DNA of 64,000 nt from Candidatus Omnitrophota bacterium (GTDB lineage Bacteria; Omnitrophota; Omnitrophia; Omnitrophales; Aquincolibacteriaceae), in contig JAHFHF010000006.1 in NCBI GenBank assembly GCA_023247055.1, positions 600 through 64,599 of the forward strand, given 5' to 3'. This document shows, in pieces, positions 6,001-43,100 of the stretch. Below the pieces are notes generated by a model. The model saw only the letters and a program-made list of their open reading frames with translations. It was not told the origin of the DNA and searched no databases. Made by a program: the position numbers and the translations under genes. Within the stretch, counting starts at the first letter, position 1, and each line of letters begins with the position of its first letter.

Positions 6001-7140
6001 CTTTCTGACGGGCTTAACGGCGGTATTACACAAGTGCCGGATCAATACCGTCAGATTACGATCGACGGCCAGCGCTACCAGGTTCAGGTGTTTACGAACT
6101 CTTCGGGCCAGACCCTGGCGCGCATTGAAAAAGTGCTGCGTACCCTGGATTCCAAGCCAGGCGTGCGCGCGGACGGCAAACTGTATCAGGTGCAGGACAC
6201 GCCCGGCAGTTATACCGTTCAGGTTGGCGGCAGTAAGCGCAAAATTACATGGGTGATGGCCGTCTGTGCCGGCGCCATGTGCCGTGATGTGGACCCCACG
6301 CCGTCTTACCTGCCGTTGGAATTAGAATCCAATCCGTCGCGCAATACCATTACGCTCAACGACGGCATTGAACGGACGCTGGTCATTGATCCCGATGAAC
6401 CCACGAATGTGGATATCCTGCCGGATCAGATCACGAGTTTTGATCTGCCGGATTTGAAACTGGGTAAACGTTTCTTCTACAGCACGGTCCATGCGAACGG
6501 GTCAGTCACGCTGACTGAAACCTATAGCGCCGATCCGCAGACTTACATCTCCGATCCGCTGACGCGCGAAGTGACGATCAACGGAAGAGTGTGGAGCGTT
6601 CAGGTGGCGGGCGGCAAGGCCGTGCTTACGGCGCGGAACATCAAGGAAAGCAGCGCGCTGCCGGGAACTTATGCGGAAGTGGACGGCCGTATTTACCAGA
6701 TTGAAGCGGATGCCCAAAACCGCTGGGTTTTCAGCGACGTGTATCTGTCCGGCGTGGCTTTCACGAGCACAGCCGACGGCAAGAGCGTGACGATTCATGA
6801 GCATGTTTACGATATCAGCGCTGCAGCGGGTAAGGTTTCTCTGAAGGAGCAGCCGCGCTCCTATCCGGTGAAGGAAGATCACGTCATTCTGAACAGCCGC
6901 ATTTACAAGGTGCAGATCGTGCGCGATATCCTGGGGCTGGAACGCGCCTGGCTGTCGGACGGCACGAACCTGATGGTCTCCGGCGAATTTAAAGATGCGG
7001 ATGCGGTCAGCGGCGAAAACAAACAGGCGCGCGCCGAAGTCGTCATTGACGGTAAAACCTTCCTGGTTTCGATTGAGCGCGATCCGTCTATTTACAGCAC
7101 TTTGTCGGATGAATTCCTGATTGTGAAACAGATTAAGCCC
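1..7140 (+). repeat. Array of degenerate beta-hairpin repeats with core h-x-h-x-G-x-x-Y-x-h, then 3-6 residues, then (D)G-x-h-x-h. The period is variable, about 25-60 aa.
   Basis: Translation shows tens of units. Examples are EVTLFDGLRYRMTVSAKGEVSLTE, TVVLDGIRYRISKHPVTGAVELAG, RVTLGDGLEYHVTAGADGRIQLEQ, MSILLDGQIYDILHTGSHRWRF, EVTINGRVWSVQVAGGKAVLTA and EVVIDGKTFLVSIERDPS. Similarity is at the protein level only. The nucleotide sequence is not repetitive. Confidence 0.6.
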
Positions 7141-22100: not shown

Positions 22101-25100
22101 GCGGCAAGTCACGATAGATGACCATCTTTACACGATTTCACGGCGTGATTTTACCGAGACGTATGATCTGGATATCAACCGGGACGAGGCGTTCAGTCAA
22201 GGCGACAGCGGCGCCCTGCTGGAAGCTTTGCTCAGTAACGGGCTTGTCAGCGAAGAAGACTTGGCTCGTTACCGCGCGCAGGGCGGAACCGCGGGATTGG
22301 GCGCTAGCGGCGGCGAGGGCGAGGGATCGTTTGCGGGCGGAGAGAGTGCCGGAGGGGGCGCAGGCATGCCGGCCGGCGGGGAAACTGGCGCAGGTTCAGG
22401 CACGTCCTATCAGGTTTCGGAAGACGAAGGCGTGGATTTGAGCGGCCTGCATGTCAGCATTCCGGGCCGCCTGCCGCGTTCGACCGTGGACATTACCGGC
22501 GACGGCCGCGGTGATATTGCGGACATCAAACGTATCCAAGAAATTCTGTTTGCCGTGCGCCGCGGTGAAATTGTCCAGCCGCGTGATTACGAGAAGGCGG
22601 ATGTTACCGGGGATGGAAAAGTTACGGATGCCGACTGGAAAGCGATTGAAACCGCGCGGCTCAAAGCGGCGCGCAGTGACGTGACCCAAGATGGCGTTAC
22701 GGATTACCGCGATGTTGAAGCGATCCGCCACATTGACCGCGAAGAAGTCATCCGGGCCACGGCGTCTGAAATCGCGAAAGCGGACCTGAACCACAACGGC
22801 GCGCTGGACGCTGCGGATGTGGCGCAGCTTGAGCAGACCATGAAGCATATGCATGAGCTGGATCTTGATTTCGACGGCAAGATTGTTTTGGCGGACGAAC
22901 TGGCGGCTTTTGACAAAGCCAAAGAATTTTACGATCTGGGCTTGAGCCTGAGCGCCGAACAGTTTGCGCGGGCGGATATCGATCAGGACGGTTTGATCAC
23001 GCCGGCGGATCTGCGCATTTATGAAAAACTGACCCAGCAGTGGGATGCTGCCGGCACGCCGCGCAATGTTTTTGATCTGACCAACGACGGCGTGGTGGAT
23101 GGCAGCGATGAGCAGCGCATGGTTGATCTTTTGATGGCCGAGGGCCTCAAAATCACTGAAGAAGAAAAAGTCCTCGGCGATATCAACCGCGACGGCATAA
23201 CGGACAGCCGTGATTTGGATCTCTATACGCTGATTTATCAAAATGAAAACCGGCTGAATATTGATGGGGTGGCGGGCATCAATGCGCAGGATGTTAATAA
23301 AGCCGCCTCGATCCGCAGCTGGCTGGCCGCGCGTAATGCGCCGGTGCGCGGGCTGACTCGGTTGAAAGATCTTCAAGATGCGGGCGTGGACACCGCCAAT
23401 CCGGATGCGGTTGCCGCGCATCTCAACCAGCTGATTTCAACCACGCAGGCCAAGATTGCCGACGTCAACGGCGATGGTCTGATCGATGAAAAAGATTTGG
23501 CCCGCGCCCGCGAAGTCGAGGAAATCGTCAGTTACGGTATGGACCGCGGCTTTGCGCTGGACATGCGTTTCGATCTTAACCAGGACGGCAAAGTCGATGA
23601 CAGTGATCTGGCGGCGCTGATGACCGCCATTTCCAACCAGATTGTGCATGATGTGAATGCGGACGGCGCGGTCAACCAGACGGATGTGGATCTTTTTGAC
23701 CGCATGATCCGCTATCAACGCACGGGCTATACGGTGATGCCGGATGATCTGGAGAATGCCGACATTGACCATAGCGGCGCTTTTGATGCGGGCGATGTGA
23801 CGAATTTCACAAACGCGCTGCCATTCTACCGCGATGTGACCGGCGATAAACGCCTGGATAGTGCGGATCTGCTCGCGGTCCGTAAAGCCAAGGCCTTGCA
23901 GGAAGCCGGTTACACGGACCGCTCCTCCGGCGAGCCGGTTTACCGGCCGCTGACGCTGGATCTGCTGCGCCGTGCGGATCTGACCCGCGATAACGTGATC
24001 GACAGCGCGGATAGCGCTTTTCTGGCGCAGGCCATTCAAGGCAATCTGGATCTGACCGGTGATTTTGCCGTGACGATCGAGGACCAGCTGCGGCTCGGCC
24101 AGTATTCGCCGTGGGGGCTGGGCGTGAAGCAAGTCGAACGTGCAGACATTGATCAGGACAATCTTATCGGCGCGCGTGATTATGCCGGCCTGCTGGCGGC
24201 GCTCGGCGGCATTGACCGCGCGGATGTCACCGGTGACGGCAAGGTCGATGCCAATGATCTCAAAGATTTACGCCGGCTGGTCGAAGCGGCCAAGCTGAAA
24301 GTGACCGGCCGCGATGTGGTGCTGGCGGATGTGACCCGGGACCGCAAGGTCGATGTGGCGGACGTGACGAAAGTCATTGAAAGCGTACGGGCTTTGCAGG
24401 CCTTTGACATCACCGGCGACCGCATGGTCAATGCGCTGGATGAACAGGCGCTTTTCTTCCTGTGGGGCGTCGAGCCGCTGGATCTGTTAAACCAAAGCGA
24501 AGCCGCTTTGGCTGAGCTGGAAGCGCGTGCGGCCGCTGCGGTCGACGCCGGGGAAGCCCGCGCCATCGAACGCGCGGCCCAAGGTATTTTTAATCAGGCC
24601 CTGACCATGGAAGAAACCGGCAAAGCGATTGCGCGCATGCTGCTCAGCCCCAGCGAATCGCAACAGATGCTGCAGGAAATTGCGCAGATCATGGCGCGTC
24701 TTTCCGGACACCGCAGCGCCATCCAAGCCGTGCTCGCTGCGCTCACCGGACAAGCAGCGCTGGCCCCCAGCCTCGCAAGCCAGCTGGAAGATGCCCTCAA
24801 AGTCCTCAAAGAAACTTTGGTTGAAGCGCGCGCGGCTGAAAGTTCGGATGCGGTGGATTCATTGGTGCTTTCGGTCGAGCCCGTGATTCAAAATATGCGT
24901 ACACTGGCCGGGACGCAGGGACAGGTCCAGCCAGGAACTCAGCCGGACCTGTCCCTGGCTGCCTATCTGGATCAGGGCGAGGCTGTTTTTGCTGAACTCT
25001 CCGCGTTGGCGCAGTCCGTGCGGCAGGCGGAAGAGACGATGGCAGGCCTTGCCGAACAAACCCGCAATGCGCTGGCGCTGGCGGATTGGATGAGCCGGCA

Positions 25101-28100
25101 GTTTGAAGCCGGGGCAGATACCAGCCCTGCTTTTGTGTCGCTGCTGGCTTTTGGCCGGAATGCCCTTGCCGAGTCGCAGCGTGCGGCCCAGGCTGCGCGC
25201 GCCCGGGCGTCGGGTCTTCTGGCACAGATGCCGGCGAATACCGCGGCCCTGCAGGCCCAGGAAACTTTGCGGGGCGCCCAGAGCCGTTTGGATCAAGCGC
25301 TGGAAACCCTCACGCAAAGTTTGCATGAGGCCCAGGCTGCCGAGAACGGTGCCATGCCTCTGGTGAAGGAAGCTCAGAGCAAACTCGACCACATGCGGAT
25401 TTTGGCGGCGCAGTCCGTGACCACGGCCCTCGCAGGCACGGCCGCAGCGCTCGTGACCCAGCTGGCCCGGTCCAATCTCGGCCGCGAACCGACACCGGAT
25501 GAAATCAGAGCCGCCGTGGCGGGCCTCGCGGCAGGAGAAACACTGGAACAGACGGCGGGCCGCTTGCTGGCAATTTCCGATGCGGCCCTGATCAAAGCCG
25601 CGCTGGATCCGCTGCGGGATAAAACCTCCCTGGATGAAAGTGCTCTGGGCGCGCGCTACCAGGCCATGACCGCAGGCCTCTGGCCATTGGAAAGTGCGAC
25701 TCAGTCCGTGATGAATTATTTTGGACCGGCCATGGATTGGCCGGCCGAATTGGCACGCTTGCAGCGGGGGGCCGACGAAATTCTCGCAGATTTAGAGGCG
25801 GCTCTCGCTGAAATGGACCGCTTGCTTTATTTGAATCCCGGCCATGCGGAACTGAACGCCAATGCTCTGCTCATGACCGATGTTCTGAATCAGGCGGCCG
25901 GCCTGGCTGAAGACCTGCGGGAATTCCCGCAGGTGCTGACGCCGGAAATCGAAAATTTCAACCTTGCCAAAGCCACGGCCGAAGCCAGCCTCGCGTCTGA
26001 CGAAAATCTGCAGGTCCATCTGGCCGCTGCCGAGCTTTTGACCGGACGCATCGACGCCATGACTGAAACTGCGGATAGGGCGCAAGCGCTCCGCTGGCTG
26101 GAAACTTTTGAAACCACGGCCGCCGGTCCTGTGCCTCAGCAGATCAACGCACTTGTGGCGGCCGCCAGAACCAAAGTGGAGAGCGCGCAGCAGGTGGAGG
26201 CCGGCATCCGTCTGCTTGAAGCTGCGGCCGAACAAACAGACGCAACCGCCGAATTTATCCGCGCGCAAGCCGGCACGATGAACCGTGAAATGCTGATCGG
26301 CGTCGTGGATCAGCTTCTGGGGCAGTTGGAGGCGGCCGCGGCACAGGCTTCAGGCGTGATCAGTCAGTATCCGGACACGGCGGCGTTCAGCCGTTTGAGC
26401 GGCCGTCCGGAAGCGCTGATGGCCCAGATTAAAGCCGCTCACGAAGCCATGCTGGCTGAATTATTCCATGAGCGGGTGGTCACAAATCGCGGGGCCGATT
26501 CCGTTGAAACCGCCGCGCTTTTGGCCGGTGCTGTGAACCGGTTGGGCGCAATCGCTGCGGACAATGGAGTGGCAATTCATGAATTGCCACTACGGATGCT
26601 TTATACGCTGATAAATAACACACGATCCAAAGTCGCTGTGCTGGAAAGTGAACTGGCTACGGCCGTCAATGCCGGCGTGGATGCCGGGGCTAATTTGGCC
26701 TCAATTCGCGACTACCTGGCCCGTATTGACCAAACTGCGGCGGCCTTGAACGCCCGCGCTGCGGCTTTGGGCGCGGATGTGAATGCGCCGCTGACGGCGG
26801 CTGACAAGAATACCGCTTTAATTTCGATTCTCAGCGGACTTGAAACGCAATCCCAGGCTGCGAATGCGACGGCCTTGACCCTCAAACAAATCCAGCAGGC
26901 TGTGCGCGAGATCCAGGGACAAGTCCAGTTAGCCGCTCAAGTGCCGGGGACTCAGGGAGAGGTCCAGTTAGCGGCTCAGATGGACCTGTCCCTGCTCACG
27001 GTTAAAAATGCACTGCTGCGTGCCACCGGCGGCGCGTCTCTGGTGGAAGAAACGGTTTATCTGGCCGCGGCCGGGCGCTTGTCGCTGGTGCTTGCCAACA
27101 ACACGAATGATTTGACCTTATTGAACCGGCTCGAAGTCTTTGCCGGTGATTTTGCGGTTCAAGCCGCCGCGGCCCGCGCAAAATTGGCTCAGCTTGCTGC
27201 CGCAGACAGCACGGGCGTCTATGGCTTCAGCGCCAATCTGCCTTCACTCGCCGCGCTCGAAGCCGATACCGGCAAAACCAAGGCGCTTGTGACCGAAAGA
27301 CTGGCGCATTTGGCCGGACAGCCGCAGGCTTGGTCCACGGATCCGCTGGTGCGCGCGCTGCATGAAGCCGAAGCCCTGCAAAAAGCCATCATGGTCCAAC
27401 AGGGACAGGTCCAAACAACTCAACAGGACCTGTCCCTTAAGACTTCGCTCGCGATCCTGGAAGCGATTGGGGAGGCCGTGACCAGCACGATCGCGGCTTT
27501 GACGGAATCCGCCCGTCAGGATGCGGCCGCTTTTGAAGACCGCCAGCGGCTGCTTGAGAATTACCGCGGTCGTTTTGATTTCTCCGAACAAGCCGCTCTG
27601 CTTCAAAGTGAAGAAACCATAGCGGCGGCGGAGCAGGCGCGTGCAGCCGAGCAAGCCGCATTCGAGCGTCACCTCGCCCTGCTGCAGGACCTTGAAACCC
27701 AGGATGAAACCCTGGCCCGGGCTTTGGCGGATATGGCGATTGACGATGCTCAAGAATTGCGCGATTTGGGCGCTGAGCCGGATCTTGCGATCGTGGAACG
27801 CCTGGAAATGCAGGCTGAATCCGCGGAAGCGCGGCAGGATTCCGGAGCGCAGATTGAAGAACTGGCCGAGGGCCTCGCCGCCTGGATCGAACGGCTGGAG
27901 ACCATGACGGCCGGTCTGAATACCAACGAGGAGTTGGCGGTGCGTGAAGGCTTGCTTGATCTGGCGGATGCCGTTACGGCGCATTGGCAGGAACTGCTGA
28001 CCGAGCCGTCTGCGGCCGAGGTGCGCCAAAAAGTCGATGCGCTGCGCAGCGTTGTGACGCAAGACCTGCAGGCGCTTGAGACCACAAAAGGGGCTGCGGA

Positions 28101-31100
28101 TGCGGCCGCCGATTGGCTGAAAGAAAACGGCGCGCATCTGACCGAACTGGACCGTCTGATTGGCGAGGCCATGGCCGCATTTGAGACTGCTGCGAAGACC
28201 ACCGGTGTAGGGGCGGGTTCTAAAACCGCCCAGGATGCCGCTGCTTCCGCGCGCCGGCTCTATGAAGAACTCGAAACGCTTCAGGATGAATTTATCGCGC
28301 TTACAGCCGAAGTCGAAAATGCCTCAGCCTATGAAGACGACATCAAGGCCATGATGACCGCGCGTGAGGAGTTCCGCGCGGAACTGGACGGCCTGGCGGA
28401 AACACAAATCCTGACGCAGATCCAAACCTCGCAGGGCGCGGATGTCACCCAACTCCTGAATACGATTGAAGCGCAGATGACGGCCAATCTCAATGCCCTG
28501 CGCAATCTGGACCCCGAAGAATTCAAAAAATCCACGGCCGAACTTTTGGCGGGTCATCCGGAATTGGGCGGCCTCAAACTCGAACTGCCGGATGCCGGAG
28601 CCCTGGATGAAAACTCTCAGCCCGACCTCTTGCGGGCCTTGCTTGAGGGCGCCCGGACGCCGGCGGCCGGCGGCACGCCGCTGCGCGGTTATTATCTGGG
28701 TTATCCGGCCACAGCGACGCTGATGAACCTTGAAAATCTGATCAGCGTTCTCGCGGCCCAGCAAGGCTCCGGAACCATTTTCGCGGAAACTTGGCTGACG
28801 AGCATGCGTGAGCGCATGAACGCCTGGTTCAACCGCATGTTCGGGATGGAGGCTGAACTTGAACAGTACCGCGTCCGCATGATCGTTGACAATTCCGCTG
28901 CGGGCATCGAATGGTCACGCGTACTCGATGGAAATATTAGCGCGGTCAATCAGCTGATCAGCGAAGCGTCAGGCGCTGCCTCAGGCGCGGATGCGGTCAA
29001 TAAACTCCGCCAGGCGGAGCGTATGATCGCGCTGGTCGATGCCCAGCAGCGAGCCGTGCAGGCGCTCTGGGACGATGTGCGCGCGCGCGGTGAGATGAAC
29101 AGCATCTGGTATAAGACGCGTACGATTTGGCAAAGCCTGCCGCCGCTGGATGTTTACGGGAAGTATCTGGACCAAATGGAAATCCTAAACGAGGGCGGTG
29201 AAATTTTACCGGGTGAAATCGTCGCCTATGGAAAACATGTGAGTGATTTTGCCGCGGAACTGGCGAAAAAAGTCAAAGACCTGAATCTGGCCGCCGACTC
29301 GGCGCGCCAGGCCGCGGCCGGCAAACTGATAGGCTCGCTCAAATCGAGCCTGCAGGCGGACCAGCGCGTGATGGATAGTCTGTTGACGGAGATTCGCGGA
29401 ACCTCTGATGCCTGGGTGCGCGAGGCGGCCCGGCGCGAGATCCACACCCTGCTGGAAAAGGCCGGCCAGCGCCTGGCGGATGCCAGCGTGCAGGCCGACG
29501 AGTGGCTGGATGCCACGACCTTTACAGTGTGGACCCGGTCCATTCTGCGGGAAAACGGCATCGACCCCGATCTGCCCGAAAATCAGAAGATCTTTGAAGA
29601 GAAGAGGGCGAATGTGCGCCGGAACGAAAAACTGAAACTGGATGGCGAGCGCCGCGCGGCGGCTGCCATGTTGAACGGCTTGCGCGTGCTGGCGGAACAA
29701 GCCGGGGCCGCAGTCATGGACAGCCTGATTTTTGAAGGCGGCAGCAAACTGCTGACCGCTGAATTGAGTGAAATCAGAACACTGCTCGGCGTCTTTGCCG
29801 CGCGCAGCGAATCTGAGCGCGATGCCGTCAAGACCGAGGCCTATCTTGAAACTGCACGCATTCTGCGTGATAAAGCGCTGGTTTTGATGAATAAGGTGCG
29901 TGAGCAAGCGGCGGCCGAGGACGCCACGCTGGAAGACCGCAATGAAGTCGCCAAAGCGGAGGCCCAATGGGATCTGATCAACACTGCCGCCGGCTATCTG
30001 GAAAATAACCGTTCAGTTCAAACAACTCAGGCGACCGGCGGTGATTCCCTGACGAACGAGGCGCAGCGATTCTTTGAGGCCGGCAATGCTCTTTATGGGG
30101 TGCTTGATGATATGCTGGCTCGCCGGCAAGTGCAGCTGGCGGGGCCCTATGACGATCTCAGTAACGATTCCGCGTTTACCATTTTACTCGCATACGGGGA
30201 TCAAATCACAGCCGACCTGACGGCCCTGCGGGATCGTATTCAGGCCACGAGCGGTATTCTCTCAAACGCGTTTGTGAATACAAACATCTGGCTGCAGCAC
30301 CTCAGCGGCATCATGGAAAATGCGCGGACCCGCGCCGCAGCGTTTTTCACCATCGGCGACCCTTCCTCGATCCGGCCCCTGGACGCCATGCGGACACTCA
30401 ACAGACTGTCCGGCAGTATGACAGCGGTCATCAAGGAAAGCTTAGAATCGCACGAATTCGCTGCGTACCGGGCGGAGAACTATCGCGCGTTTGAAAGTCT
30501 GGCTCAGGGACTGCGCCGGACGCTGGATCAAAAATACCAGCAGCTGGATACGATCTACCGGGCGGATCGCACGGCGGCAGCCCTGGCCGAACTGAAAGAC
30601 GCCGCGCTGGAAGTCTTCAAACCCGCGGCCCGCTTAAATGAACTGCGCATGGCTTTCGGTGAAATGGCCGAGGTGGCGCTGGCGGATTTAACCCAGGCTA
30701 GCGTCGTCGAATTTTTACGGACAGAGATCGAACGCTCCCTGTCTGCGAATGAAGCGGCCCTTATCACGCGCGCGGCCGAAGAAGTCCAGCAAGGGTTGAT
30801 CCGCGCCGCGTCCGTCTCGGCCGTGGGCATCGCGCGAAACCATACGAAGTACGAAGTGGTCTTTAATAATACGACACAGCGGCGCGAACGGACGGTGATC
30901 GATTATGCGCTCAGTGCCGGCGGTACAGCTGCCTTCCGCCAGACGCTGGCGCAGGCCTCAGATTTGCAAAAGCCACTTTCTGAAATGAACGAGCTTGCCA
31001 TTCTCGAAAAAATCCGCGAAACCAACGGCGTTTTTGCCACGGACTATGTCAAACGGCAGGCGCAAATGTTTGAACGCTGGCGCCTCAAATTTATTCCGCA

Positions 31101-34100: not shown

Positions 34101-37100
34101 GACCGCCTTGTCCATGATTGCGGCCGCGGCCATGATTCCGCAGTCAACGGACGATTTGAAGCAGCAGGCCGCTCTCGCCGCCGCCCAGGCCCAGACGCTC
34201 GTCGAAAGATCGGGATCCTCGGAGGCGGTCAGTGCCGCAGAAATCAAGGAAGTTTCGCTTGCGGCGGCGCAGTTAGCCGATACCGTGAAAGCCTTCATGA
34301 CTTCGCTCAATCTGACGGTACCGGCCAAAATTGACCAGATGACGAATGCGGCTCAGCAAGCGGCCGCACTGGCGGGTGCGATTGAAAAGGGCCGTTCGGG
34401 CGCTTCGATCGTCCAGGCTTTTGGAGTCAGCGGCGCGGGCGTGATTCAATATGCGCTCCACAGCCCCGAAGGCAAGGCTGTTTATGAAGCTTATCGCGAT
34501 GTGCTAGGCCGTGATCCCAAGGGCGAAGAACTGGCCGTGGATTTGGCCGACGTGCTGGCCGGCAAACTGACGACCGCCGATTTGAAAGTGCGCCTGCTCG
34601 GTTCTGAAGAGTACCGCCAGACCCGTGCCTTGATGGAACGCGTCATTCTGTCGGTGGGTGCGGTGCTTGAAAATTATACGGGCTTAAAACGCAGCGAACA
34701 GATCATATTCGCTGCCGGCTTTGGTATTCCCGCTTCCATGGCGGCCTCACTGAATAAAGATTCTGCCACAGCTATTCTTAAATACCTGTCGGAACAAAGC
34801 CTGCACTTCGGCATCAGCGCCTTCACGGCTCTCAGCTTCATGCTCTCTCAAGACTCACGACTCAAGACTCTCGACTACGAAGAACTCGCGCGCCAGACGA
34901 TTCTCTCCGACATTCTCTCCGGCGTGCTGCGTGCCGATACGCGCGGCGAACTGGTCCTCTCGGCTTTTGCGCTTCAAAATACGGCGGCGCACGCGGGGCT
35001 CGAACTTTACGGCCGGCGCATGACGGCCGAGGAATTGCCGGCGCTTAAATTGCCGGCCATTATTCACCTGGACGGCGATCATTTTGCCGTGCTTGAAAAG
35101 GCCGACGCTGAAAACGTGACCGTGCGTGAATATACGGGCGATTCTTTTGCGCTGAGCGTGGCGGAATTTGTGAAACATTGGGACGGCTTCGTGATGAGCG
35201 CCGATCAACCGGACCGCCGCACGCTTGACAGCGCGAGCCTGCAGCTCATCCGCGGTTCGGATGCGGCGCTGGGATCAAGCCCTGCCGATATTGCGGCATT
35301 GTCCGTCCAGCTTGGCAATTTGTTTGCCGCCATGGCTTCCGGTTCCGTGGATGCGACGCTGGCTCAGGCCGCCTTGGCCGCGGCAGGGGATTTGGTTTCC
35401 GTGCTGGCCATTTTTGAAGAATTAAGCGCCAAGGGCGCTTATCTCAAGAGTGCCGAAAATCTGGAAGAGCGCCTGCGCCAGCAGTCGCTGGCCTTCTTTG
35501 AGGAAATCGACCGGCTGGACCTGACCGTGCGCCGCGCTTCGCGTGTGTCGCAAGGCAAAGCTTTTATGGATCAGATCACCGCGCGCAACAAGGACATCCA
35601 GAATTTGCTCATTATTGCCCAGTCTACGGCTATGCAGTATCCTTCGAACTCGGCGATTGCCGCGGATCTTGCCGAAGTACAGACCATCGCGGCCCAGGCG
35701 GCGAACAAAGCCGCGCAGACCGCGATTTATCTGAATGAATTGACGGCCGCCGAAGCCAATGCGGCCTCGCTGGCGTCCGCCATGCGCCAGGATCTTGCGC
35801 TCATGCAATCCCTGAACCTGCGCGCGCTGGCCAGCCGCAGCAGCGCGGAAGTGGCGTCGATTTTCTCGCAGGCGGATGAGATGGAAGACCAGATGCGCTT
35901 GCTGCGTGAAGACATCAACGACGTCTACGATGCCTTTCTCAGCAGTCAAGCCATTCTGGACCGTGCCACGGAAGCCAACGAACTGCTGCTGGAAGCGGCG
36001 CGCATCCTGGCCGAGTTGACCGTGCGCGCGCGTGCCGTGGCCCGTTATAACCAGATGAGCCCGCTGCTGTTGGACCGCGCGGATGTCAACCGCGACGGCA
36101 GCGTGACTGCCGCTGACGTGACAGCGCTCAATCTGGCCATGGCCACGGTGGATGACATCAATCTCGACGGCGTGGTCGACCTGCTCGATAAGGCCATCTG
36201 GCAGCAGCTCCTGCCGCTGATTCCGACGCTGGATTTCCTGAATGGAACCTTAGCCGGGCTGGGCGATGTGGATGCGGACAGCCAGCTTGACAGCGACGAC
36301 GTCTCCTTGTTCCGTTCGTACTTGTCGGCTTACGTCAACGTGGATCAAGACCCAGCCGGGCTGGTGGATTCGAGCGATGTCCTGGCCGTGAGCAATTATG
36401 TGAATTCAGGCTACACCTTCAAATACGGCACGCCGGACACCGTGACGCTGTACCGCTACTTCGGTGAAACCCAGCCCAAAGTCGTGCACGTGGCCGATCC
36501 GAACCAGACCATCTATGTCAATTCGATCTTTGATGTACTCGATTCCACGAGCAATGAGACATTGGATGCCCTGACGGATGTGGAGTTTCCTGAGAATCAG
36601 GGCTTTTATGCCGGCCAGATGCAGGGAATTGAGCGCTCAGCACTGGCTTCCGATGATGAAAGCGCCGTGGCGCTCTTGGCCAGCCGCGCCCGCGACTTAC
36701 TGGATCAGGCGCTCTTGGGCCGCGATCTTTTGACCCTCATCAATACGCCCGCCAGCCGTCAAGTGGCACAGACTGCGGATGGAACGCTTGAAACTTTGGC
36801 TGATCTTTACACGGCCCTGCAGGATTGGACCAAGTTTGCCGCTCAAAAAGAAGACGTCGTGCGTTTGGATCGCGAAGCGCTCGTCAGTGCGGAAGCGGCG
36901 TTGGCCCAAGCGCGTGCCGCATTGGCCGGGCTTGTCGCTCAAGTCAATGCCGGCACGCTTTCATCGGCGGATCCTGCCTTCGCCGCGGCGCTGGCCAATG
37001 TCAGTGCCAGGGAAAGCGCATACACAGCGGCAAAAAACACCTTGAGCGCATCGGCGCAGGACTCCGGCCGCGTGCGGCGCGAGAAAATCCTGCTGGACTA

Positions 37101-40100
37101 TCTCTACAAGTCGGCCAAGAACGATTTGGAATCCCTGCGGCGCTCGTACGAAAAAATTCGCGCTCAAGCCGAGGCGTTGCGTTACAAGAGTTACGCGGCC
37201 GTTACAAGTTCGTTTGTCCGCTATCTTGGAGATGCCGCCTATGCCGCGGGGCAAAAACTTGACCCCAATAAACCGGAGGACAAACCGCTGATCCGCGCGC
37301 TTCAGGAAGTCCAGGCCTTCCAGTACCGTCTGGCGGAAACAACCGGCAATGATTTGATGGACTTGTATAACGGCCTTAGCTTTGCGCGTGACAATGGGTG
37401 GGAAACCGGTCTTCAGCCGCCGGCGGACCCGATGCCTTTGACGATGGGCGCCTGGAATGATGATACCAACCCGCTGCAATTGATTGACTTTGATCATTCC
37501 AGCGCCCGGGAATTCCGCGCGAACGTCGACCGGCTCAAAATTATTTTCGAGCATTGGGGCGAACCGCTGCCTGGAACCGGCACGGGTGGTCTTGACCTAA
37601 TGCTTGATGCCAGCCAGGTTACGTTCATCGAGCAGTTACGGGCCAAGATGGATACCATGACGCGTCTGATGCATCAAAACTATCCGTATTGGCAGCTGAA
37701 GCTGGGCGACGTGCTCTCAGGCGTGCCGCATTTCTTTACCGAGGCGCGCATGCTGATCGAAGGCGCTAAAGTGTATTACCAGGAACTCAAGATCCGGGCC
37801 GCGCTTGTGCGAAGCGCGCATCAGGCCTATGCCTCCCGTCAAACCGAATTTAATGCGGCCGCTGCTCGCGCTCTCGGTGTGGACCTGAAGGACCTGGATA
37901 CGGATGGCGATGTGGATTATGACGATTTGAATGTTCTTAAAACCCGTGTGGATACGGAAGAGCAGGAGTATACCGGCACGCTGGGCTTAATGAGTGAACT
38001 GACCGCGCCCGATGTCGGCCTCGAAGCCGTGTTGAATAAACTCGAAGGCTTCTACGGCAATATGAAACCCGTGGACCGGCTTGAAAATCTGCGCCGTGAA
38101 TTCTCGGCTTTTGAAGAACGCGTGCGCATGGCCCCAACGGCTGAAGCGGCGGCGGCTGAATACGAAGCGGCTGCGCTGGTGCTGCGTGACATCACCATGC
38201 CCAATGAAGAACACTCCGTGCGTATTTCCGGTGAGCTTGACCGCGCCGCCGCGCCGGGGACTTATAATCAGGTGGCCGTGTCTTTTGCCGCACCCATGCC
38301 TGAATTCAGAGTCGGGACAACAACCTTCAAATTTCCATTCCATCTGCGTATTGGCAATGAAATCTTTGGCATGCGTGCCGGCGACCACACCGTGACGCCC
38401 GAAATCATGAACCAGGCGTTTACGTTCTATAAACTTTATGACGTGGTCGATGTGACTCTGCCGGATGGGTCGATCATCGGTTACAACCAGCCGGTCACCA
38501 CGCTGGCCGCCATGAATCCCTTTGTTTCGTATTACGATATTCCGACGGGAGAACACCGGGTCAACGTGGGACCGATCACTTACCGGCTGGATGAAGGTTT
38601 GACCGGTCTTTGGCTGCGGCTTGAAACCGAAAAAGATCAATATGTGGAAATCGCCGAAGAACAATACAGCCTCTTCATGAGCGGCAATCCCGTTTATATG
38701 GCCGTGCGCCGTGCCTATGAAGATGCGGCGGCCGCCTACGAAAGTGCCGCCAACGCCGTCACCGCCGAAGAGGAACGTGTGGCGGATGAGGAAGAGGATC
38801 GCGCGGCAGCTATCCGCCGGAGCGTTGACGCACTGATGCAAAATCAAATCACACCGCTTGGGCTGGGGATTTTCGGCACATCCGGCAGCGTTCTTTTAGA
38901 TGCGGCCGAGATCGAGCGCCGTTTGGATGAGTTCGCGAATTATGAAGCCGAGTTTGATCAATTGCAGAATGAAATCGTCCGCCTGCAAGCCATGGCTTTG
39001 GCGCCGGCCCTGACCGAGGTCAATGCCAAGGCCGCACTGGTTGCCGCCCAAGCGGCGCCGCGTAATGCTGTCAAGGCTGATCTTGAGACAGCCCACGCCC
39101 AGGCGCAATTTGCCGCGGAATTGGCCGCGGCCTTTAACGCCGCGCGCGCGGCGTTGGGAAGGGGCCAGCTTTCGTCATCCGGACTTGCTGGGCTAAGCGA
39201 GAGTGTGTTGAATGCGCGCTACAGCGGACTTTTGGCCGAGAGACTTGCTTCTGAACTGGCGCTGGCGCGCTACATGCAAATCTATGAGCGCATGAATGGT
39301 GCGGCGCGCGCGCGTCTGGATTCCATCTACGACCGCACGGCTTTGGCCGCGGATTGGCAAGCCGCATTCAGCAATTTGAACACGGCGCTGCAAACTGCGG
39401 AAGCGGCGCGGATCGCGGATGAGATTACGGCCGGAACAACGAATTTATCCGCGATTGCTGGCAATCTCAATAGCACGATTACCGCAGCGGATACGAATTT
39501 TGACAACCGTAAACTGGTGCTTGATACCGCGGCCGGAGCGGCCACGGATAACGCCACGCTCAAACCGCTGGTCGAAGGCGCGGACGGCTATATCGAAATG
39601 CGCAACAAAATCCAAGGCATGAAAGATCTTTTGGAACGCGCCCTGAATTGGTCGACGGACGCTTCTTTCGTGGCCTCCGTCACCGCCATGCTGTCGACGA
39701 TCAATGCGGATGCGGGCGCCTACGACACTGCGATCGCGATGCAAAATGTCCGCTTGGCGCATTTTGCCCTGCGTGACGGTCCGGTCACGGGCCAGCGCAA
39801 CCGGGTCGTGACGCTCAAGAACCAGGCGCAGACGATTGACACCGGCCTGCCGCCCAATCCCACGATCCAGGATGCGCGCGCGATCAATGCCGTGCTGGCA
39901 CGGGTTGCGGCCGCTGCCGGACAAATCGAAAAAATGCGCGATGAAGCGCGCGAACTTTTCCGCCGCACGGATGCGTATTATGCGGCGGTCGCGGCTTCGG
40001 GGCAGATCATTTTGGCGCCCTTGCGCGCGGATGAAATCAATGCGCTGAACGACATGAACAACCTCCTTCTCAATTTGAACACACGGCTTGCCGCGCTTGA

Positions 40101-43100
40101 AAATGACGCCTATCTGGTCGAACGCGACCGGTTGAACGGGATTAAGGCCGATCGCTTGACGGACAAAAACAACCGTTGGACGGACCTGACGGCAGCCGGC
40201 GGCCTGACGCCGATGAGCGGCAGCTATGAGAATTACTACGCCAACCATGATCTGGTGCGCGCCCTGCGTGAGGAGACCGACGCAGAAGCCGTGGCCGGTG
40301 AGAAAGTTAAGGAACAACGCGACATCGTGACAGTTCAGCTTGTTGCTCGCGCCGACGCTCTGCGCGCTTCGATGCAGGCTGTTATTCAAAGCCAGCTTGA
40401 GCCGCTGCTTGCGGGCCTTCTCGATGTCAACGGCGTGCCCGTGCTTTCCGAAGCGGAGTTGACTCTGCGCATGGGGCAAGCTCGCACCAAACGCGCTGAC
40501 TTTGAGGCCCTGCGCGATGAGTTGAACCGGATTAAAACCTATCTGCCTGACGATGCCCGGGAAGATTTTCAGGTTTATCTGAATGCCGCTTCGACTTTTG
40601 GCCTGCGGGTCGATGAGATTTTGACTCAGCTGGCGGATGCGCTCAACTATGAAGTGCATGCGGATGGTGCGCGCGCAGCGATGAGCGCCGCTGCGGCCGC
40701 TGCGGCCAGCGCTTCAGTGCGGATCGGCGGCCTGAATTTGACTGCGCTTTCGGATGCGGCTTTGGGCAATCTGCGCTCGGGGCTTTTGAGCGACCGCGCC
40801 AATCTTGAAGCCGCCCTGCTCAACTATGAGCGCCTATTCGCCACAGCCACGGGCGCCAGCCAGAACCGTCTGGCCAGCATCTATAACACCGCGTCCCTGC
40901 GGGCGGCCTTTAACAGCATGTTTAATGCACTTGATGCCGAACTGGCACGCCGCGAACAGATTTTGATTCAAGCGGCGCTGACAAGTATGCCGCCTGCGCT
41001 CACGGCAGCCACATTGGCTGCCAATACGGCCGCCACGATTGCCAATTGGAAAGCTGATTTTACAACTCGCCTAGGCCTGTTGGAAAGCGCCTTCCAGACG
41101 GCCTCTACGGGTGCGGCCATGAATCTAGTCATTCTGAATGCGGCGGCAGATGATTTGACGGACCTTCTGCTGGATGCCGAAGAAGCGCGCCGCGCCGTCA
41201 CGCGCATGCCAGCCTGGGTGGCCGAAAGACCGCTGACGGAAACAGCGGCATTCCGCAATGAAGTCACAGCCGGTGCAGAAGAGATCGGCTTCCTGCTTCA
41301 GCGCATCACGGCCAAAATGCTGGGCATGAACAAAATTGCCGGTTATCAGACCATGAAGGAAGGCGAACTCAGCGCGAATCTTACGGTCGTTCAGGCCGCT
41401 AAAGCCGAGGTTGATGCGCTTGAGGCGGCCTTGTTAGCAGTGCCTGCTGCGGATGCGCCCGTCACGGACCTGGATCGCGCGCGCGTGGAAGGGGAGATTG
41501 CCTTGAAGGCCATGCATCTGCAATGGTCACTGGCCGAAGAGCGCCTGCGCGCCTCGCGCGAATTGCAGCTTGGCGCCGGCGCCGCCGCCGCGGGCTATAC
41601 GGCCCCGTCGGTTTCTGACCAGGATACGGCCTTGCTTGGCATCATGCAGGCTGCCGGCCGCCTGTCCACGCGCCTGGCCGACCTAGATAAACGCCGCGAA
41701 CTCAAAGCGCTGGAAGAAGCCCGGCGCAAACAGTATGAGGCTGCGCTCAAAGTCCAGGAAGCCAAAGACCGGGTCAATGGCGACTCGGTACTCTACTGGT
41801 TCCAGACGGTCCATGACATGGCCTATCAATCCCTGCAGGAAACCCGCGATCTCAAGCGTGCCTTTGAAAATGCCTTTGCCGCCATGCGCGTCTCGTTTGA
41901 AAACATGCGCGCCAAAGTGCAGGCTGAAAACGAAATTCAGAAAAAAGCCAAAGATCTGTCCGAGGAACTCAAGGCGCATGCACAAATTGTCAACCAACTT
42001 GTCTTTGACTTGTCACTCTTGGAAAATTTCGGTGAGATCGTGACCGATCCCGACAACGCCAACTTCTCCCATGTGGATTTGGCGGATAACGCCCAAATCC
42101 TGCTGCGTCAGATCAACGAATATACGGGCGGGCTGGGCGACGGCAAGAAGGGCCTGATCGATGACTATCAAGACATCAAGGCCATGGCCGAGTCTCAGCC
42201 GGAAAATATCGAATTGCAGCGAATTTTGAAAGACGTGGAACCGACCGCGCTTGACGCCATGGCCATTCAGCGCGTACTCAGCGACCTCTTTGGCGTGATG
42301 AGCGCCTACAGCCGTTCGGTCCAGCATCAGGAACTAGCGCGCGCAGCCATCGAAGCCGAGAAACAGTTGATGGCGCTTTTTGAAAATGAAACCGACGACG
42401 GCGCCAAGGCGGCTTACTTTGACCTCTTCCAGCAGGCGGAAGGCAAACGCCAGGAAGCGATGAATCTGTCCATGTCAGAAGCGCGCGGCATTCTGGGGAA
42501 CCTGGACCAATTGCGCGAGTACGTCGATAACTCCGACCCGTTCCTGAAAGAAAACTATCCGTCGCTTCTGACGGCCGACAAGCTGCGCATCGTCAGCCTG
42601 CTTGAAAAAATCATCGGCAGTGCAAACCTGTTGTCTCTCTCCAACGGCACGGGCGTTGAGACACCATTGGGCTCAGTCGTCGATGTGGAACACCGTCTTG
42701 ATCTGGTGACGCGCCTGCGCAATAACCGGGGTTTGAGCAACGCGCCGCAGACGGAATCCGGCAGCGCGATGACGAATGTTGAAAATTTTAAATTTAATTT
42801 TAAAAATGACGTCATTCCAGCCGGATTCCCGATTCAGAACAATACTGTCTATGAATGGTTCCCGGCACCCGCAACGCCGCCGGCCGTCACGCCCAAGTGG
42901 TACGACCTTCAAGCCGGTTCAATTAATTTCTCGGCTCCGGCTTCAAATTTTGTACCTGGCCAGGCGTATGTGATTATGCGCTATGTCAAGCATCCGACCC
43001 GCTATAGACCGTGGAACGGTGTGGGTCCGGAACCGATTCATGAAGACGAGGAATTCCTCTACCGTGTCGTCACATTCTTGCGTGAGCCGTCGGACGACAA

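What the first reader, a model, noticed from the sequence alone, without database searches (positions are those of the whole stretch)
24481..42640. An uninterrupted alpha-helical low-complexity region of about 6,000 residues (18 kb) forms the middle third of the protein
For about 18 kb the translation is dominated by Ala, Leu, Gln, Glu, Arg, Thr and Ser. It has few Pro or Gly, no Cys, and long heptad-compatible stretches. This is consistent with an enormous helical or coiled-coil stalk. A rigid helix of that length would be several hundred nm long. A sub-region (32,240-34,440) is extremely Ala-rich with short hydrophobic runs. Few bacterial proteins devote this much sequence to one helical spacer. 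It suggests the protein spans a large distance, for example cell to prey, cell to substrate or through a sheath.
Basis: partly seen in the sequence, partly recalled or inferred. Interest (0 to 1): 0.65.

Follow-up and report, generated by a model that had tools for sequence, protein, structure and literature searches.

The report
Segmented helical scaffold inside giant protein
About 6,000 residues in the middle of a giant (over 21,000-residue) Omnitrophota-type surface protein are Ala/Leu-rich and mostly helical, but they look like some 170-200 short helices interrupted by small folded domains, not one rigid coiled-coil rod.

Summary
The whole 64-kb window is one open reading frame of 21,333 codons with no stop. 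A sharp compositional block lies at nt 24481-42640 (aa 8161-14213): Ala 18.5%, Leu 12.4%, no Cys.

The block is unique sequence, not low complexity and not an expanded repeat.

It is not "uninterrupted". It contains:
- a confidently folded C39-like domain (aa 11494-11753);
- a dockerin pair with a small beta domain (aa 12022-12200);
- at least one more beta-rich island (aa 12741-12897).

It is not a long coiled coil. Heptad periodicity is far below a tropomyosin control. Pro or Gly occurs about every 13 residues.

Two AlphaFold tiles (2,281 aa) give 74-81% helix as helices of 20-30 aa separated by short loops. The tertiary confidence is low. The Ala-rich sub-region shows a weak period of about 27 residues.

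The composition is on the folded side of the charge-hydropathy plot.

Nearest relatives are fragments. One is from an Omnitrophota MAG (35-44% identity). Another carries about 2 kaa of similar helical sequence ahead of the same dockerin module.

Best reading: an extracellular scaffold or spacer made of serial helical bundles or a solenoid, within a "Dockerin-type" giant protein. Analogues are the Embp/Ebh and talin rods.

The parts
1..63999 (+). One continuous open reading frame (21,333 codons) that runs off both ends of the window; the giant gene holding the region
   Evidence: No stops in frame +1, against 221-1,095 in the other frames. GC1/2/3 and Ala/Leu codon usage are uniform across the three parts.
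18898..24450 (+). Dockerin / EF-hand Ca-binding repeat arrays (aa ~6300-6650 and ~7500-8150) just upstream of the helical block
   Evidence: Pfam Dockerin_1 with E 1.6e-28 to 2.3e-21, plus EF-hand families. Self-BLAST shows a repeat network.
24481..32238 (+). Helical block 1 (aa 8161-10746): unique Ala/Leu/Gln/Glu-rich sequence predicted as short helices with loops; looser stretches at aa ~9500-9600 and ~10280-10480
   Evidence: AlphaFold on aa 8161-9360 gives 81% helix: 34 helices, mean 28.5 aa, longest 53, pLDDT 46.6. No Pfam, NCBIfam, PHROG or PDB sequence hits. No homologues found.
32239..34440 (+). Ala-richest sub-region (aa 10747-11480): about 27 helices of ~21 aa with ~6-aa loops; possible degenerate ~27-residue helix-loop repeat; low charge
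   Evidence: AlphaFold gives 74% helix with mean helix-start spacing 27.5 aa. Fourier peak at period 27.0 in Pro/Gly positions (8.8 against a shuffle 95th percentile of 7.3) and in hydropathy (7.9 against 7.5). This is only nominally significant in sliding windows. Only one borderline hydrophobic segment, at aa 10793.
34480..35259 (+). Globular island: 'YRxxLGRDP' (DUF4214-like) helical part plus a C39-like papain-fold domain with Ser11606 at the Cys position and His11694 kept. It ends in a double-glycine-leader-like motif, LDSASLQLIRGS (Gly11752-Ser11753).
   Evidence: Pfam Peptidase_C39, E 4e-10 to 6e-11. AlphaFold pLDDT 90-98. Foldseek hits 6mpz, 7n87, 3b79 and 3zua with target-normalised TM-score 0.65-0.73 and probability 1.0. 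More than 100 relatives carry the module. Ser aligns with Cys in BLAST alignments. Motif statistics are; DUF4214 matches only 3 of 18 relatives.
35278..36060 (+). Pro/Gly-poor helical segment (aa 11760-12020), including the longest Pro/Gly-free run (139 aa, aa 11882-12020). Conserved in relatives.
   Evidence: Pro+Gly is 1.5% in aa 11801-12000. Run list. 37% identity to P0001 and 32% to P0044 over this segment plus the dockerin module.
36064..36600 (+). Globular island: dockerin-like Ca-binding pair (aa 12022-12140) plus a small beta-rich domain (aa ~12140-12200). This is the most conserved part among relatives.
   Evidence: Pfam Dockerin_1, E 3e-8. Alignment A2 has invariant LLDR.D...DLLDK.IW. 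Low helix propensity at aa 12041-12191.
36601..38220 (+). Mixed helical block (aa 12201-12740) with loop-rich stretches
   Evidence: Composition and propensity tables. Rough helix extrapolation of 64-74%.
38221..38691 (+). Beta-rich island (aa ~12741-12897), rich in aromatic residues and Pro/Gly
   Evidence: Pa-Pb trough at aa 12768-12878 with Pro+Gly 15% and aromatics 13.5%. Sequence read. Not modelled.
38692..42570 (+). Helical block 3 (aa 12898-14190). It holds an old internal duplication (aa 12934-13130 and aa 13450-13648, 27% identity) and the only clearly heptad-coherent stretch (aa 13928-14010).
   Evidence: Self-BLAST E 5e-11 and pairwise E 6e-12. 3.5-residue power 11.8 over 83 aa. Rough helix extrapolation of 81-91%.

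Best explanation
The region is the helical middle section of an extracellular 'Dockerin-type' giant surface protein, probably from Omnitrophota.

It is built from roughly 170-200 amphipathic helices of about 20-50 residues joined by short loops. These helices most likely pack intramolecularly into a chain of antiparallel helical bundles and/or alpha-solenoid segments. The Ala-rich part may be a degenerate ~27-residue helix-loop repeat.

The chain is punctuated by protein-interaction modules: a C39-like domain, a dockerin pair and small beta domains. This would make a long, acidic, semi-flexible scaffold or spacer. If it packs like the Embp/Ebh rods it would be about 200-280 nm long. It would connect the N-terminal Ca-binding dockerin and carbohydrate-binding-like arrays to the rest of the protein, and could offer many unique docking surfaces.

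Shown here: the reading frame, the composition, the absence of repeats, the interrupting domains, the lack of long heptad order, and helix-loop segmentation in two modelled tiles.

Inferred: bundle or solenoid packing, extracellular location, physical length, and the spacer/scaffold function.
For: - Reading frame and uniform codon usage.
- Compositional block with sharp edges.
- AlphaFold DSSP: 81% helix with 34 helices of mean 28.5 aa in aa 8161-9360, and 74% helix with 27 helices of median 21 aa in aa 10747-11479.
- A rough classifier trained on those tiles (cross-tile AUC 0.79-0.82) gives 81% helix and about 171 helices for the whole block.
- Short heptad-like patches are 7-8 times more frequent than in shuffled sequence, as expected for packed bundles. 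They are far rarer than in tropomyosin (6.1% against 0.8% and 36.8%).
- 95% of windows lie on the folded side of the charge-hydropathy plot.
- No transmembrane-grade segments, apart from two borderline ones that each carry a charge.
- Dockerin/EF-hand modules lie on both sides of and inside the block, and all Cys come in close pairs outside it. Both fit an extracellular location.
- Relatives keep the layout. P0044 has about 2.1 kaa of helical-type sequence ending in the same dockerin module. P0001, from an Omnitrophota MAG, aligns at 37-44% across the C39 module, the helical segment and the dockerin module.
- Literature: Dockerin-type giant proteins with dockerin, EF-hand, ILEI and C39-like domains (10.1101/2023.11.21.568195). 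Embp/Ebh rods of three-helix bundles, where six FG-repeats have Dmax 34.8 nm and the Ebh rod is ~320 nm (PMC7587433).
Against: - Tertiary packing is not established. pLDDT is 46.6 for tile A and mostly 30-50 for the Ala-rich part, and pTM is 0.27-0.42.
- Foldseek gives no significant match for the helical parts.
- Only 38% of the block was modelled. The remainder rests on propensity scales and a crude classifier.
- No homologues were found for most of the block, so there is no co-variation support.
- The 27-residue periodicity is only nominally significant.
- Function, location and expression are all inferred. The termini of the protein, and any membrane anchor, lie outside the window.
Confidence: 0.55

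Rival explanations
1. One enormous rigid alpha-helix or canonical (possibly oligomeric) coiled-coil stalk, up to ~900 nm long.
For: High helix propensity and Ala/Leu/Glu/Gln richness. An 83-aa heptad-coherent stretch at aa 13928-14010 and a 139-aa Pro/Gly-free run at aa 11882-12020.
Against: Mean 3.5-residue power is 1.79 against 6.41 in tropomyosin. 2.8% of windows exceed 6 against 71%, no different from the non-helical C-terminal third. The median Pro/Gly-free run is 8 aa. The longest predicted helix is 53 aa. Globular domains interrupt the block.
Confidence: 0.06
2. An intrinsically disordered or molten low-complexity linker that AlphaFold draws as helices only by default.
For: Low pLDDT over nearly all helical parts. 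No homologues and no family matches. Biased composition.
Against: Entropy is only 0.2 bit below the flanks. 95% of windows lie on the folded side of the charge-hydropathy plot. Leu+Ile+Val+Met+Phe is about 27%, and Pro is low at 2.4%. Amphipathic and heptad-like patches exceed shuffles. Single-sequence AlphaFold gives low pLDDT for most orphan folded proteins. The helical segment aa 11845-12010 is conserved at ~35% identity in relatives.
Confidence: 0.12
3. Part of the block, above all the low-charge Ala-rich sub-region with ~21-residue helices, is a membrane-active helical-hairpin module. It would insert into a prey or host membrane in the manner of pore-forming or translocator proteins.
For: Helices of ~21 aa with ~6-aa loops, mean hydropathy +0.3 to +0.55 and only 7.5-11.5% charged residues. 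One segment reaches 1.94 on a 19-residue Kyte-Doolittle hydropathy window, at aa 10793. In more than 80 relatives the adjacent C39-like module is followed directly by a hydrophobic, transmembrane-like region. Omnitrophota giants are proposed to act on prey surfaces.
Against: Only one borderline hydrophobic segment in 734 aa, and it carries a charge. The hydropathy comes from Ala, not from Leu/Ile/Val/Phe. No match to known pore-former folds. In the window the hydrophobic region that relatives have after the C39 module is absent.
Confidence: 0.09
4. The block is not one continuous rod in the mature state. The giant protein is a polyprotein cut at double-glycine-like sites, for example after Gly11752-Ser11753 next to the C39-like domain. 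This would release separate helical proteins. It is compatible with the best explanation for each piece.
For: A C39 fold lies immediately upstream of a conserved [LIVMF]xG[GAS] motif in 81 of 92 relatives, against a 24% background. The window has LDSASLQLIRGS. West-Roberts et al. proposed that C39 and S8 domains may cleave giant proteins.
Against: The nucleophile position is Ser, not Cys, in the window and in the whole 'HFG.SA' subfamily, so activity is uncertain. HlyB-type C39-like domains bind substrates without cutting (3zua hit; the function is from established knowledge). There are no proteomic data.
Confidence: 0.15
5. Artefact: the block is a mis-assembled or non-coding stretch that happens to be open.
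For: The word-indexed protein searches returned nothing for the query tiles, not even a self-match. Exact DNA searches found no copy in the public contig sets.
Against: 18 kb without a stop in one frame only. GC3 and codon usage are the same as in the flanks. No repeats that could mislead an assembler. Embedded domains with strong family and fold matches lie in frame. Relatives match at 35-44% identity.
Confidence: 0.02

Closest known systems
Dockerin-type giant proteins of Omnitrophota (West-Roberts et al. 2023, bioRxiv 10.1101/2023.11.21.568195; 'dockerin-bearing' class in bioRxiv 10.64898/2026.06.07.730766)
   Same: Huge uninterrupted ORF. Many dockerin/EF-hand repeats, an ILEI domain and a C39-like domain. 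Long stretches without transmembrane segments. The nearest relative is from an Omnitrophota MAG.
   Different: The passages read in those papers (term searches in both; one section of the first in full) describe beta-helix tubules, CBM35/dockerin ladders and transmembrane counts. They do not describe a ~6-kaa alpha-helical block. No TSP3, discoidin or DUF1080 hits in this window. Termini, total length and taxon are not visible here.
Embp / Ebh of staphylococci (FIVAR-GA 'F' and 'FG' repeats; PMC7587433)
   Same: A bacterial surface protein with a helical region running to thousands of residues, made of short helices packed into bundles. It forms an elongated rod (~320 nm) that presents binding sites.
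   Different: Embp/Ebh use 125-170-aa tandem repeats of recognisable families. Here there are no FIVAR or GA hits and essentially no repeats. Bundle packing is not shown here. The block is interrupted by C39-like, dockerin and beta domains.
Talin, vinculin and spectrin-type helical-bundle rods, and alpha-solenoids (HEAT, ARM, TPR)
   Same: Chains of 20-45-aa amphipathic helices with short loops. Weak non-significant Foldseek resemblance to vinculin, talin R11-R13, the Sla2 THATCH domain and designed helical repeats. Possible ~27-aa periodicity in the Ala-rich part.
   Different: No significant sequence or fold match (E above 0.2). No Pfam repeat family. The comparators are eukaryotic cytoplasmic proteins; this one is probably extracellular and bacterial.
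C39 peptidase domains of PCAT/AMS transporters (LahT150 6mpz, PCAT1) and the catalytically inactive C39-like domain of HlyB (3zua)
   Same: The embedded module has the C39 fold (target-normalised TM-score 0.65-0.73, probability 1.0) and keeps the His. A double-glycine-leader-like motif lies next to it.
   Different: Ser replaces the catalytic Cys. The domain is not attached to an ABC transporter but sits inside a giant helical region. The putative recognition motif is in cis, about 20-27 aa downstream.

Membership tests
Omnitrophota Dockerin-type giant protein | Very long single ORF (30,000 aa or more in the type examples) | tested here: inconclusive
   At least 21,333 codons are open, and the ORF runs off both window ends. 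Total length is unknown.
Omnitrophota Dockerin-type giant protein | Numerous dockerin / EF-hand repeats | tested here: met
   Pfam Dockerin_1 and EF-hand hits at aa ~6340-6402, 7650-8150 and 12019-12043.
Omnitrophota Dockerin-type giant protein | Bacterial thrombospondin type 3 repeats, discoidin, DUF1080 | tested here: not met
   No such Pfam hits at E <= 0.001 anywhere in the window. They may lie outside the window.
Omnitrophota Dockerin-type giant protein | Accessory ILEI and C39-like domains | tested here: met
   ILEI at aa 4145-4224, E 1.1e-7. C39 at aa 11653-11735.
Omnitrophota Dockerin-type giant protein | C-terminal transmembrane anchor and SecA-like region; Omnitrophota genome | not testable with these tools
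   The C-terminus is outside the window. The source was not found in genome or metagenome scans. The only indirect evidence is that the nearest relative, P0001, is named Candidatus Omnitrophota.
Canonical coiled coil (tropomyosin, M-protein or TAA-stalk type) | Heptad periodicity held in register over long stretches | tested here: not met
   3.5-residue power 1.79 against 6.41, and 2.8% against 71% of windows. The a/d score reaches 0.5 in 6.1% of windows against 36.8%. The only exception is aa 13928-14010.
Canonical coiled coil (tropomyosin, M-protein or TAA-stalk type) | Near absence of helix breakers over hundreds of residues | tested here: not met
   Pro+Gly 7.7%. Median breaker-free run 8 aa, longest 139 aa.
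Low-complexity / intrinsically disordered region | Strongly reduced sequence entropy or simple repeats | tested here: not met
   3.89 against 4.06-4.10 bits. Tandem Repeats Finder and repeat finders find nothing relevant. Self-BLAST is almost empty.
Low-complexity / intrinsically disordered region | Low hydropathy and high net charge (Uversky); disorder-predictor calls | tested here: inconclusive
   The Uversky margin is positive in 95% of windows. No dedicated disorder predictor was available, and AlphaFold pLDDT is low.
Embp/Ebh-type helical-bundle rod | Tandem FIVAR / GA (F, FG) repeats | tested here: not met
   No FIVAR or GA Pfam hits even at E <= 1. No tandem repeats.
Embp/Ebh-type helical-bundle rod | Serial three-helix bundles forming an elongated rod | tested here: inconclusive
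   Helix lengths and loops are compatible. Packing was not predicted with confidence (pTM 0.27-0.42), and Foldseek was not significant.
Peptidase C39 (bacteriocin-processing cysteine peptidase) | Papain-like C39 fold | tested here: met
   pLDDT 90-98. Foldseek hits 6mpz, 7n87, 3b79 and 3zua with target-normalised TM-score 0.65-0.73. Pfam E 6e-11.
Peptidase C39 (bacteriocin-processing cysteine peptidase) | Catalytic Cys | tested here: not met
   There is no Cys between aa 6765 and 14998. Ser11606 aligns with the Cys of paralogous copies. 'HFG.SA' is invariant or nearly invariant in 18 relatives.
Peptidase C39 (bacteriocin-processing cysteine peptidase) | Catalytic His | tested here: met
   His11694 in 'GDHF' is invariant in alignment A1.
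Named alpha-solenoid repeats (HEAT, ARM, TPR, Sel1) | Match to a repeat family profile | tested here: not met
   No such Pfam hit at E <= 1, apart from noise (Arm_PDR, E 0.69).

The most novel reading that the evidence does not exclude
The block is a new kind of non-repetitive, multi-kiloresidue helical scaffold in which roughly 170-200 helices are all unique. It would include a previously undescribed ~27-residue Ala-rich helix-loop solenoid. It would be split or regulated in cis by a Ser-for-Cys variant of the C39 peptidase fold acting on its own adjacent double-glycine-like motif. In this reading the giant protein is a self-processing polyprotein whose helical pieces assemble on, or insert into, a prey surface.
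Probability: 0.12. Interest if true: 0.7.

Novelty: new variant of a known kind. Interest (0 to 1): 0.4.

Why it matters
Giant genes of Omnitrophota are known, but most of their sequence has no assigned family.

This work shows that one 6-kaa stretch is a unique-sequence, helix-rich scaffold punctuated by interaction modules. That gives a structural hypothesis for part of the unassigned sequence. It also gives a length scale, roughly a cell diameter if the block is packed like the Embp/Ebh rods.

It identifies concrete test points: the edges of the folded islands, and the Ser-variant C39 domain with its neighbouring double-glycine-like motif.

It corrects the more striking reading of a ~900-nm rigid coiled coil. 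No new principle follows unless the self-processing or membrane-active readings prove true.

Tried and rejected
- Three word-indexed homologue searches (aa 8161-9500, 11480-12250, 9534-10600) returned nothing.
- Exact DNA search in genome and metagenome contigs found nothing.
- The search for related loci with the C39 module (genome contigs) and with alignment A2 (metagenome contigs) found nothing. The source genome and long related loci could therefore not be obtained.
- PDB sequence searches of the whole block found nothing.
- NCBIfam gave only a sub-threshold FapD C39 hit. PHROGs gave nothing, so a tape-measure-like origin was rejected. Pfam at E <= 1 on 640-aa tiles gave only noise outside C39 and dockerin.
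- Foldseek of the low-confidence tile A gave only non-significant generic helical proteins.
- A multi-pass membrane-region reading was rejected. Only two borderline Kyte-Doolittle hydropathy segments were found.
- A recent repeat expansion or assembly artefact was rejected.
- A literature search for the assembly accession of the nearest relative, and for C39 together with DUF4214, found nothing.
- The ~27-residue periodicity did not survive as a strong signal in sliding windows (nominal p 0.02-0.05). It is reported only as suggestive.

Full report
**What is in the window**

Frame +1 of the + strand has no stop codon across all 21,333 codons. The other five frames have 221-1,095 stops. The ORF listing shows only minus-strand ORFs because the real gene runs off both ends. 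GC at the three codon positions, and Ala and Leu codon choice, are nearly the same in the N-terminal, middle and C-terminal parts. The whole window is therefore one coding sequence from one genome.

**The observation**

- In aa 8161-14213 (nt 24481-42640), Ala is 18.5%, Leu 12.4%, Gly 5.3%, Pro 2.4% and Cys 0%.
- Outside the block, Ala is 9.7%, Leu 9.1%, Gly 8.0% and Pro 3.9%.
- The N-terminal edge coincides with the end of a dockerin/EF-hand array.
- The C-terminal edge coincides with a jump in Pro+Gly to 16-17% and loss of helix propensity near aa 14190-14213.
- The block is acidic: 798 Asp+Glu against 538 Lys+Arg.
- The Ala-richest part is aa 10501-11500, with Ala 24-26% and only 7.5-11.5% charged residues.

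**It is neither low complexity nor a repeat artefact**

- Shannon entropy is 3.89 bits, against 4.06-4.10 in the flanks.
- Tandem Repeats Finder finds one trivial 30-nt array. The longest direct DNA repeat is 53 nt at 79% identity.
- Self-BLAST of 300-aa and 200-aa tiles finds a single internal similarity inside the block: aa 12934-13130 against 13450-13648, at 27% identity.
- The block is about 6 kaa of essentially unique sequence.

**It is not uninterrupted**

- Pfam finds Peptidase_C39 at aa 11653-11735 (E 4e-10 to 6e-11) and Dockerin_1 at aa 12019-12043.
- With an 18-sequence alignment (A1), AlphaFold folds aa ~11489-11750 at pLDDT 90-98, with beta strands.
- Foldseek matches this model to the double-glycine proteases LahT150 (6mpz) and PCAT1 (7n87) and to the C39-like domains 3b79 and 3zua. 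The target-normalised TM-score is 0.65-0.73 and the probability 1.0.
- Propensity scans flag further non-helical islands at aa 12041-12191 and 12768-12878. The sequences there are rich in aromatic residues, Gly and Pro.
- Looser stretches occur at aa ~9500-9600, ~10280-10480 and ~12440-12560.

**It is not a long coiled coil**

- Fourier power of hydropathy at 3.5 residues, in 56-aa windows, averages 6.41 in a tropomyosin control, with 71% of windows above 6.
- In the block the average is 1.79, with 2.8% of windows above 6. This is indistinguishable from the C-terminal third of the window (1.61 and 2.6%).
- In 224-aa windows tropomyosin gives 25. The block averages 1.98, with a maximum of 8.7.
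- An a/d-position score reaches 0.5 in 6.1% of 35-aa windows. The figure is 0.8% in locally shuffled sequence and 36.8% in tropomyosin.
- These are short heptad-like patches, as in packed bundles. They do not hold a register over long distances.
- Pro or Gly occurs on average every 13 residues. The median breaker-free run is 8 aa, and only 8 runs reach 50 aa. The longest is 139 aa, at aa 11882-12020.
- The single clearly heptad-coherent stretch is aa 13928-14010 (power 11.8 over 83 aa).

**It is helical, in short segments**

- AlphaFold on aa 8161-9360 (single sequence) gives 81% helix. There are 34 helices with mean length 28.5 aa and maximum 53 aa, separated by loops of 1-48 residues, most carrying Gly, Pro, Asn or Asp. 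pLDDT is only 46.6 and pTM 0.27.
- AlphaFold on aa 10700-11780 gives 74% helix for the Ala-rich part. There are 27 helices with median length 21 aa, mostly with 4-8-aa loops and a mean helix-start spacing of 27.5 aa. pLDDT there is mostly 30-50, with some stretches at 60-80.
- Independently of the model, Pro/Gly positions and hydropathy in aa 10747-11480 both peak at a period of 27.0. The powers are 8.8 and 7.9, against shuffle 95th percentiles of 7.3 and 7.5.
- In sliding windows this signal is only nominally significant, so I call it suggestive.
- A crude classifier trained on the two DSSP strings (cross-tile AUC 0.79-0.82) extrapolates to 81% helix and about 171 helices for the whole block.
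- By charge-hydropathy, 95% of 100-aa windows lie on the folded side.
- Only two borderline hydrophobic 19-mers exist, at aa 10793 and 11787, and each carries a charge. The block is therefore not a membrane-spanning region.

**Relatives and identity**

- The helical parts have no Pfam, NCBIfam, PHROG or PDB sequence match.
- Three word-indexed searches found nothing, although the candidate cap was saturated each time.
- An exhaustive HMMER search with aa 11480-12679 found 255 proteins. Nearly all of the 150 listed hits match only the module at aa 11494-11753, which occurs in many proteins of 2-7 kaa.
- Three fragments also match the helical and dockerin part.
  - P0001 is 44% identical over aa 11478-11733 and 37% over aa 11845-12279.
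  - P0044 is 32% identical over aa 11876-12085 and weakly similar to aa 9981-10219.
  - P0108 is 27% identical over aa 11873-12140.
- P0001 is MBI3306558.1, a partial protein from a 'Candidatus Omnitrophota bacterium' MAG.
- P0044 is about 2.1 kaa of helical-type sequence (Gly 3%, Pro 1%) that ends in the same 'LLDR.D...DLLDK.IW' dockerin module. A long helical region upstream of this module is therefore a shared layout, while its sequence diverges quickly.
- The window also holds many dockerin/EF-hand repeats and an ILEI domain.
- This matches the 'Dockerin-type giant proteins' of Omnitrophota (10.1101/2023.11.21.568195) and the 'dockerin-bearing' class of a 2026 preprint.
- In the passages of those papers that I read (term searches in both, one section in full), no multi-kiloresidue alpha-helical block is described.

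**Most likely mechanism (inference)**

I propose a chain of antiparallel helical bundles and/or solenoid segments forming a long, acidic, semi-flexible extracellular scaffold or spacer, with embedded interaction modules.

The arguments for an extracellular location are indirect:
- Ca-binding dockerins lie on both sides of and within the block.
- There are no transmembrane segments in the window.
- All 30 Cys of the window occur as 15 close pairs outside the block.

Length estimates:
- Six Embp FG-repeats (750 aa) span 34.8 nm (PMC7587433). At that packing, about 5,000-5,400 helical-block residues would span roughly 200-280 nm.
- One continuous helix of 6,053 residues at 0.15 nm per residue would span about 900 nm.
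- From my own knowledge, Omnitrophota cells are about 0.2-0.3 µm across. The scaffold would therefore be about one cell diameter long.

**Comparison with known systems**

- The block works most like the Embp/Ebh rod or the talin and spectrin rods. It is not a member of those families: there are no FIVAR or GA hits, no tandem repeats and no significant fold match.
- The host protein fits the Dockerin-type giant class on the features that can be tested here. TSP3, discoidin and DUF1080 domains were not found in this window, and the termini are out of view.

**Side finding: the C39-like module**

- BLAST alignments to Cys-bearing paralogous copies place Ser11606 ('HFGISAF') opposite their Cys ('NVINCAV'). 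His11694 is conserved.
- 'HFG.SA' is invariant or nearly invariant across 18 relatives.
- About 27 aa after the fold, 81 of 92 relatives carry [LIVMF]xG[GAS], against a 24% background. The typical form is '...EKNIRGS', which resembles a double-glycine leader. In those relatives it is followed at once by a hydrophobic stretch.
- The window has 'LDSASLQLIRGS' ending at Gly11752-Ser11753, but no hydrophobic stretch after it.
- This suggests recognition or cleavage in cis, which would divide the helical block. Whether a Ser variant is active is unknown.

**Verdict**

The words 'uninterrupted', 'low-complexity' and 'heptad-compatible' do not hold. The coiled-coil stalk reading is replaced by a segmented helical scaffold. 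It is a new variant within a known class of giant proteins and of moderate interest.

Noticed in passing
window 1-63999 (+): The entire 64-kb window is one stop-free reading frame (21,333 codons) that continues beyond both ends.
   Followed up: yes
window 34480-35259 (aa 11494-11753): The C39-fold domain has Ser11606 where paralogous copies have the catalytic Cys, and His11694 is kept. The 'HFG.SA' variant is shared by more than 90 multi-kiloresidue proteins. It is followed ~27 aa later by a double-glycine-leader-like motif ([LIVMF]xG[GAS]; 81 of 92 relatives against a 24% background). In relatives, but not in the window, a hydrophobic stretch follows directly. This may be a cis recognition or autoprocessing site.
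   Followed up: partly
whole window; Cys at aa 1144/1149, 1217/1221, 2089/2094, 6757/6764, 14999/15008 ... 21224/21232: All 30 cysteines occur as 15 pairs spaced 4-13 residues apart. There are none between aa 6765 and 14998. This suggests local disulfide loops in the non-helical parts.
   Followed up: no
window 24905-24957, 26942-26994 and ~27403-27444 (aa 8307, 8973-8998, 9135): A short motif, 'QGQVQ...(Q)DLSL', recurs three times at predicted loop-helix junctions. Two copies are 79% identical over 53 nt at the DNA level despite otherwise unique sequence. Its meaning is unknown.
   Followed up: partly
window 36031-39180 (aa 12011-13060): Pro/Gly positions show a strong ~54-residue periodicity (power 10.8-11.2; none of 300 shuffles reached it) in the stretch that holds the dockerin pair and the beta islands. 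Not explained.
   Followed up: no
window 1801-21510 (aa ~600-7170): A ~110-135-aa domain recurs at 10 or more sites at 22-35% identity (for example aa 601-735, 919-1040, 2111-2288, 2913-2987, 3709-3812, 4617-4723, 5840-5962, 6069-6187, 6777-6886, 7026-7169). It may correspond to the CBM35/dockerin 'ladder' units described for Dockerin-type giants. An ILEI domain lies at aa 4145-4224 (nt 12433-12672).
   Followed up: no
window 38800-39390 and 40348-40944 (aa 12934-13130, 13450-13648): The only internal duplication in the helical block: ~200 aa at 27% identity, with copies 516 aa apart.
   Followed up: yes
minus strand, e.g. 499-3339 (946 aa) and 39445-40659 (404 aa): Long antisense ORFs. One minus frame has only 221 stops over 64 kb. 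This is most likely a by-product of the GC-rich, Ala-rich sense frame rather than real genes.
   Followed up: no
L002 (JGI 3300036355 contig Ga0401695_02890), protein P0044: A 2,188-aa product is called from an ATG. It consists almost wholly of helical-type sequence and ends, just after the conserved dockerin module, in an odd Cys-containing tail before a stop. This may be a frameshift or chimeric end of a fragmentary giant gene.
   Followed up: no
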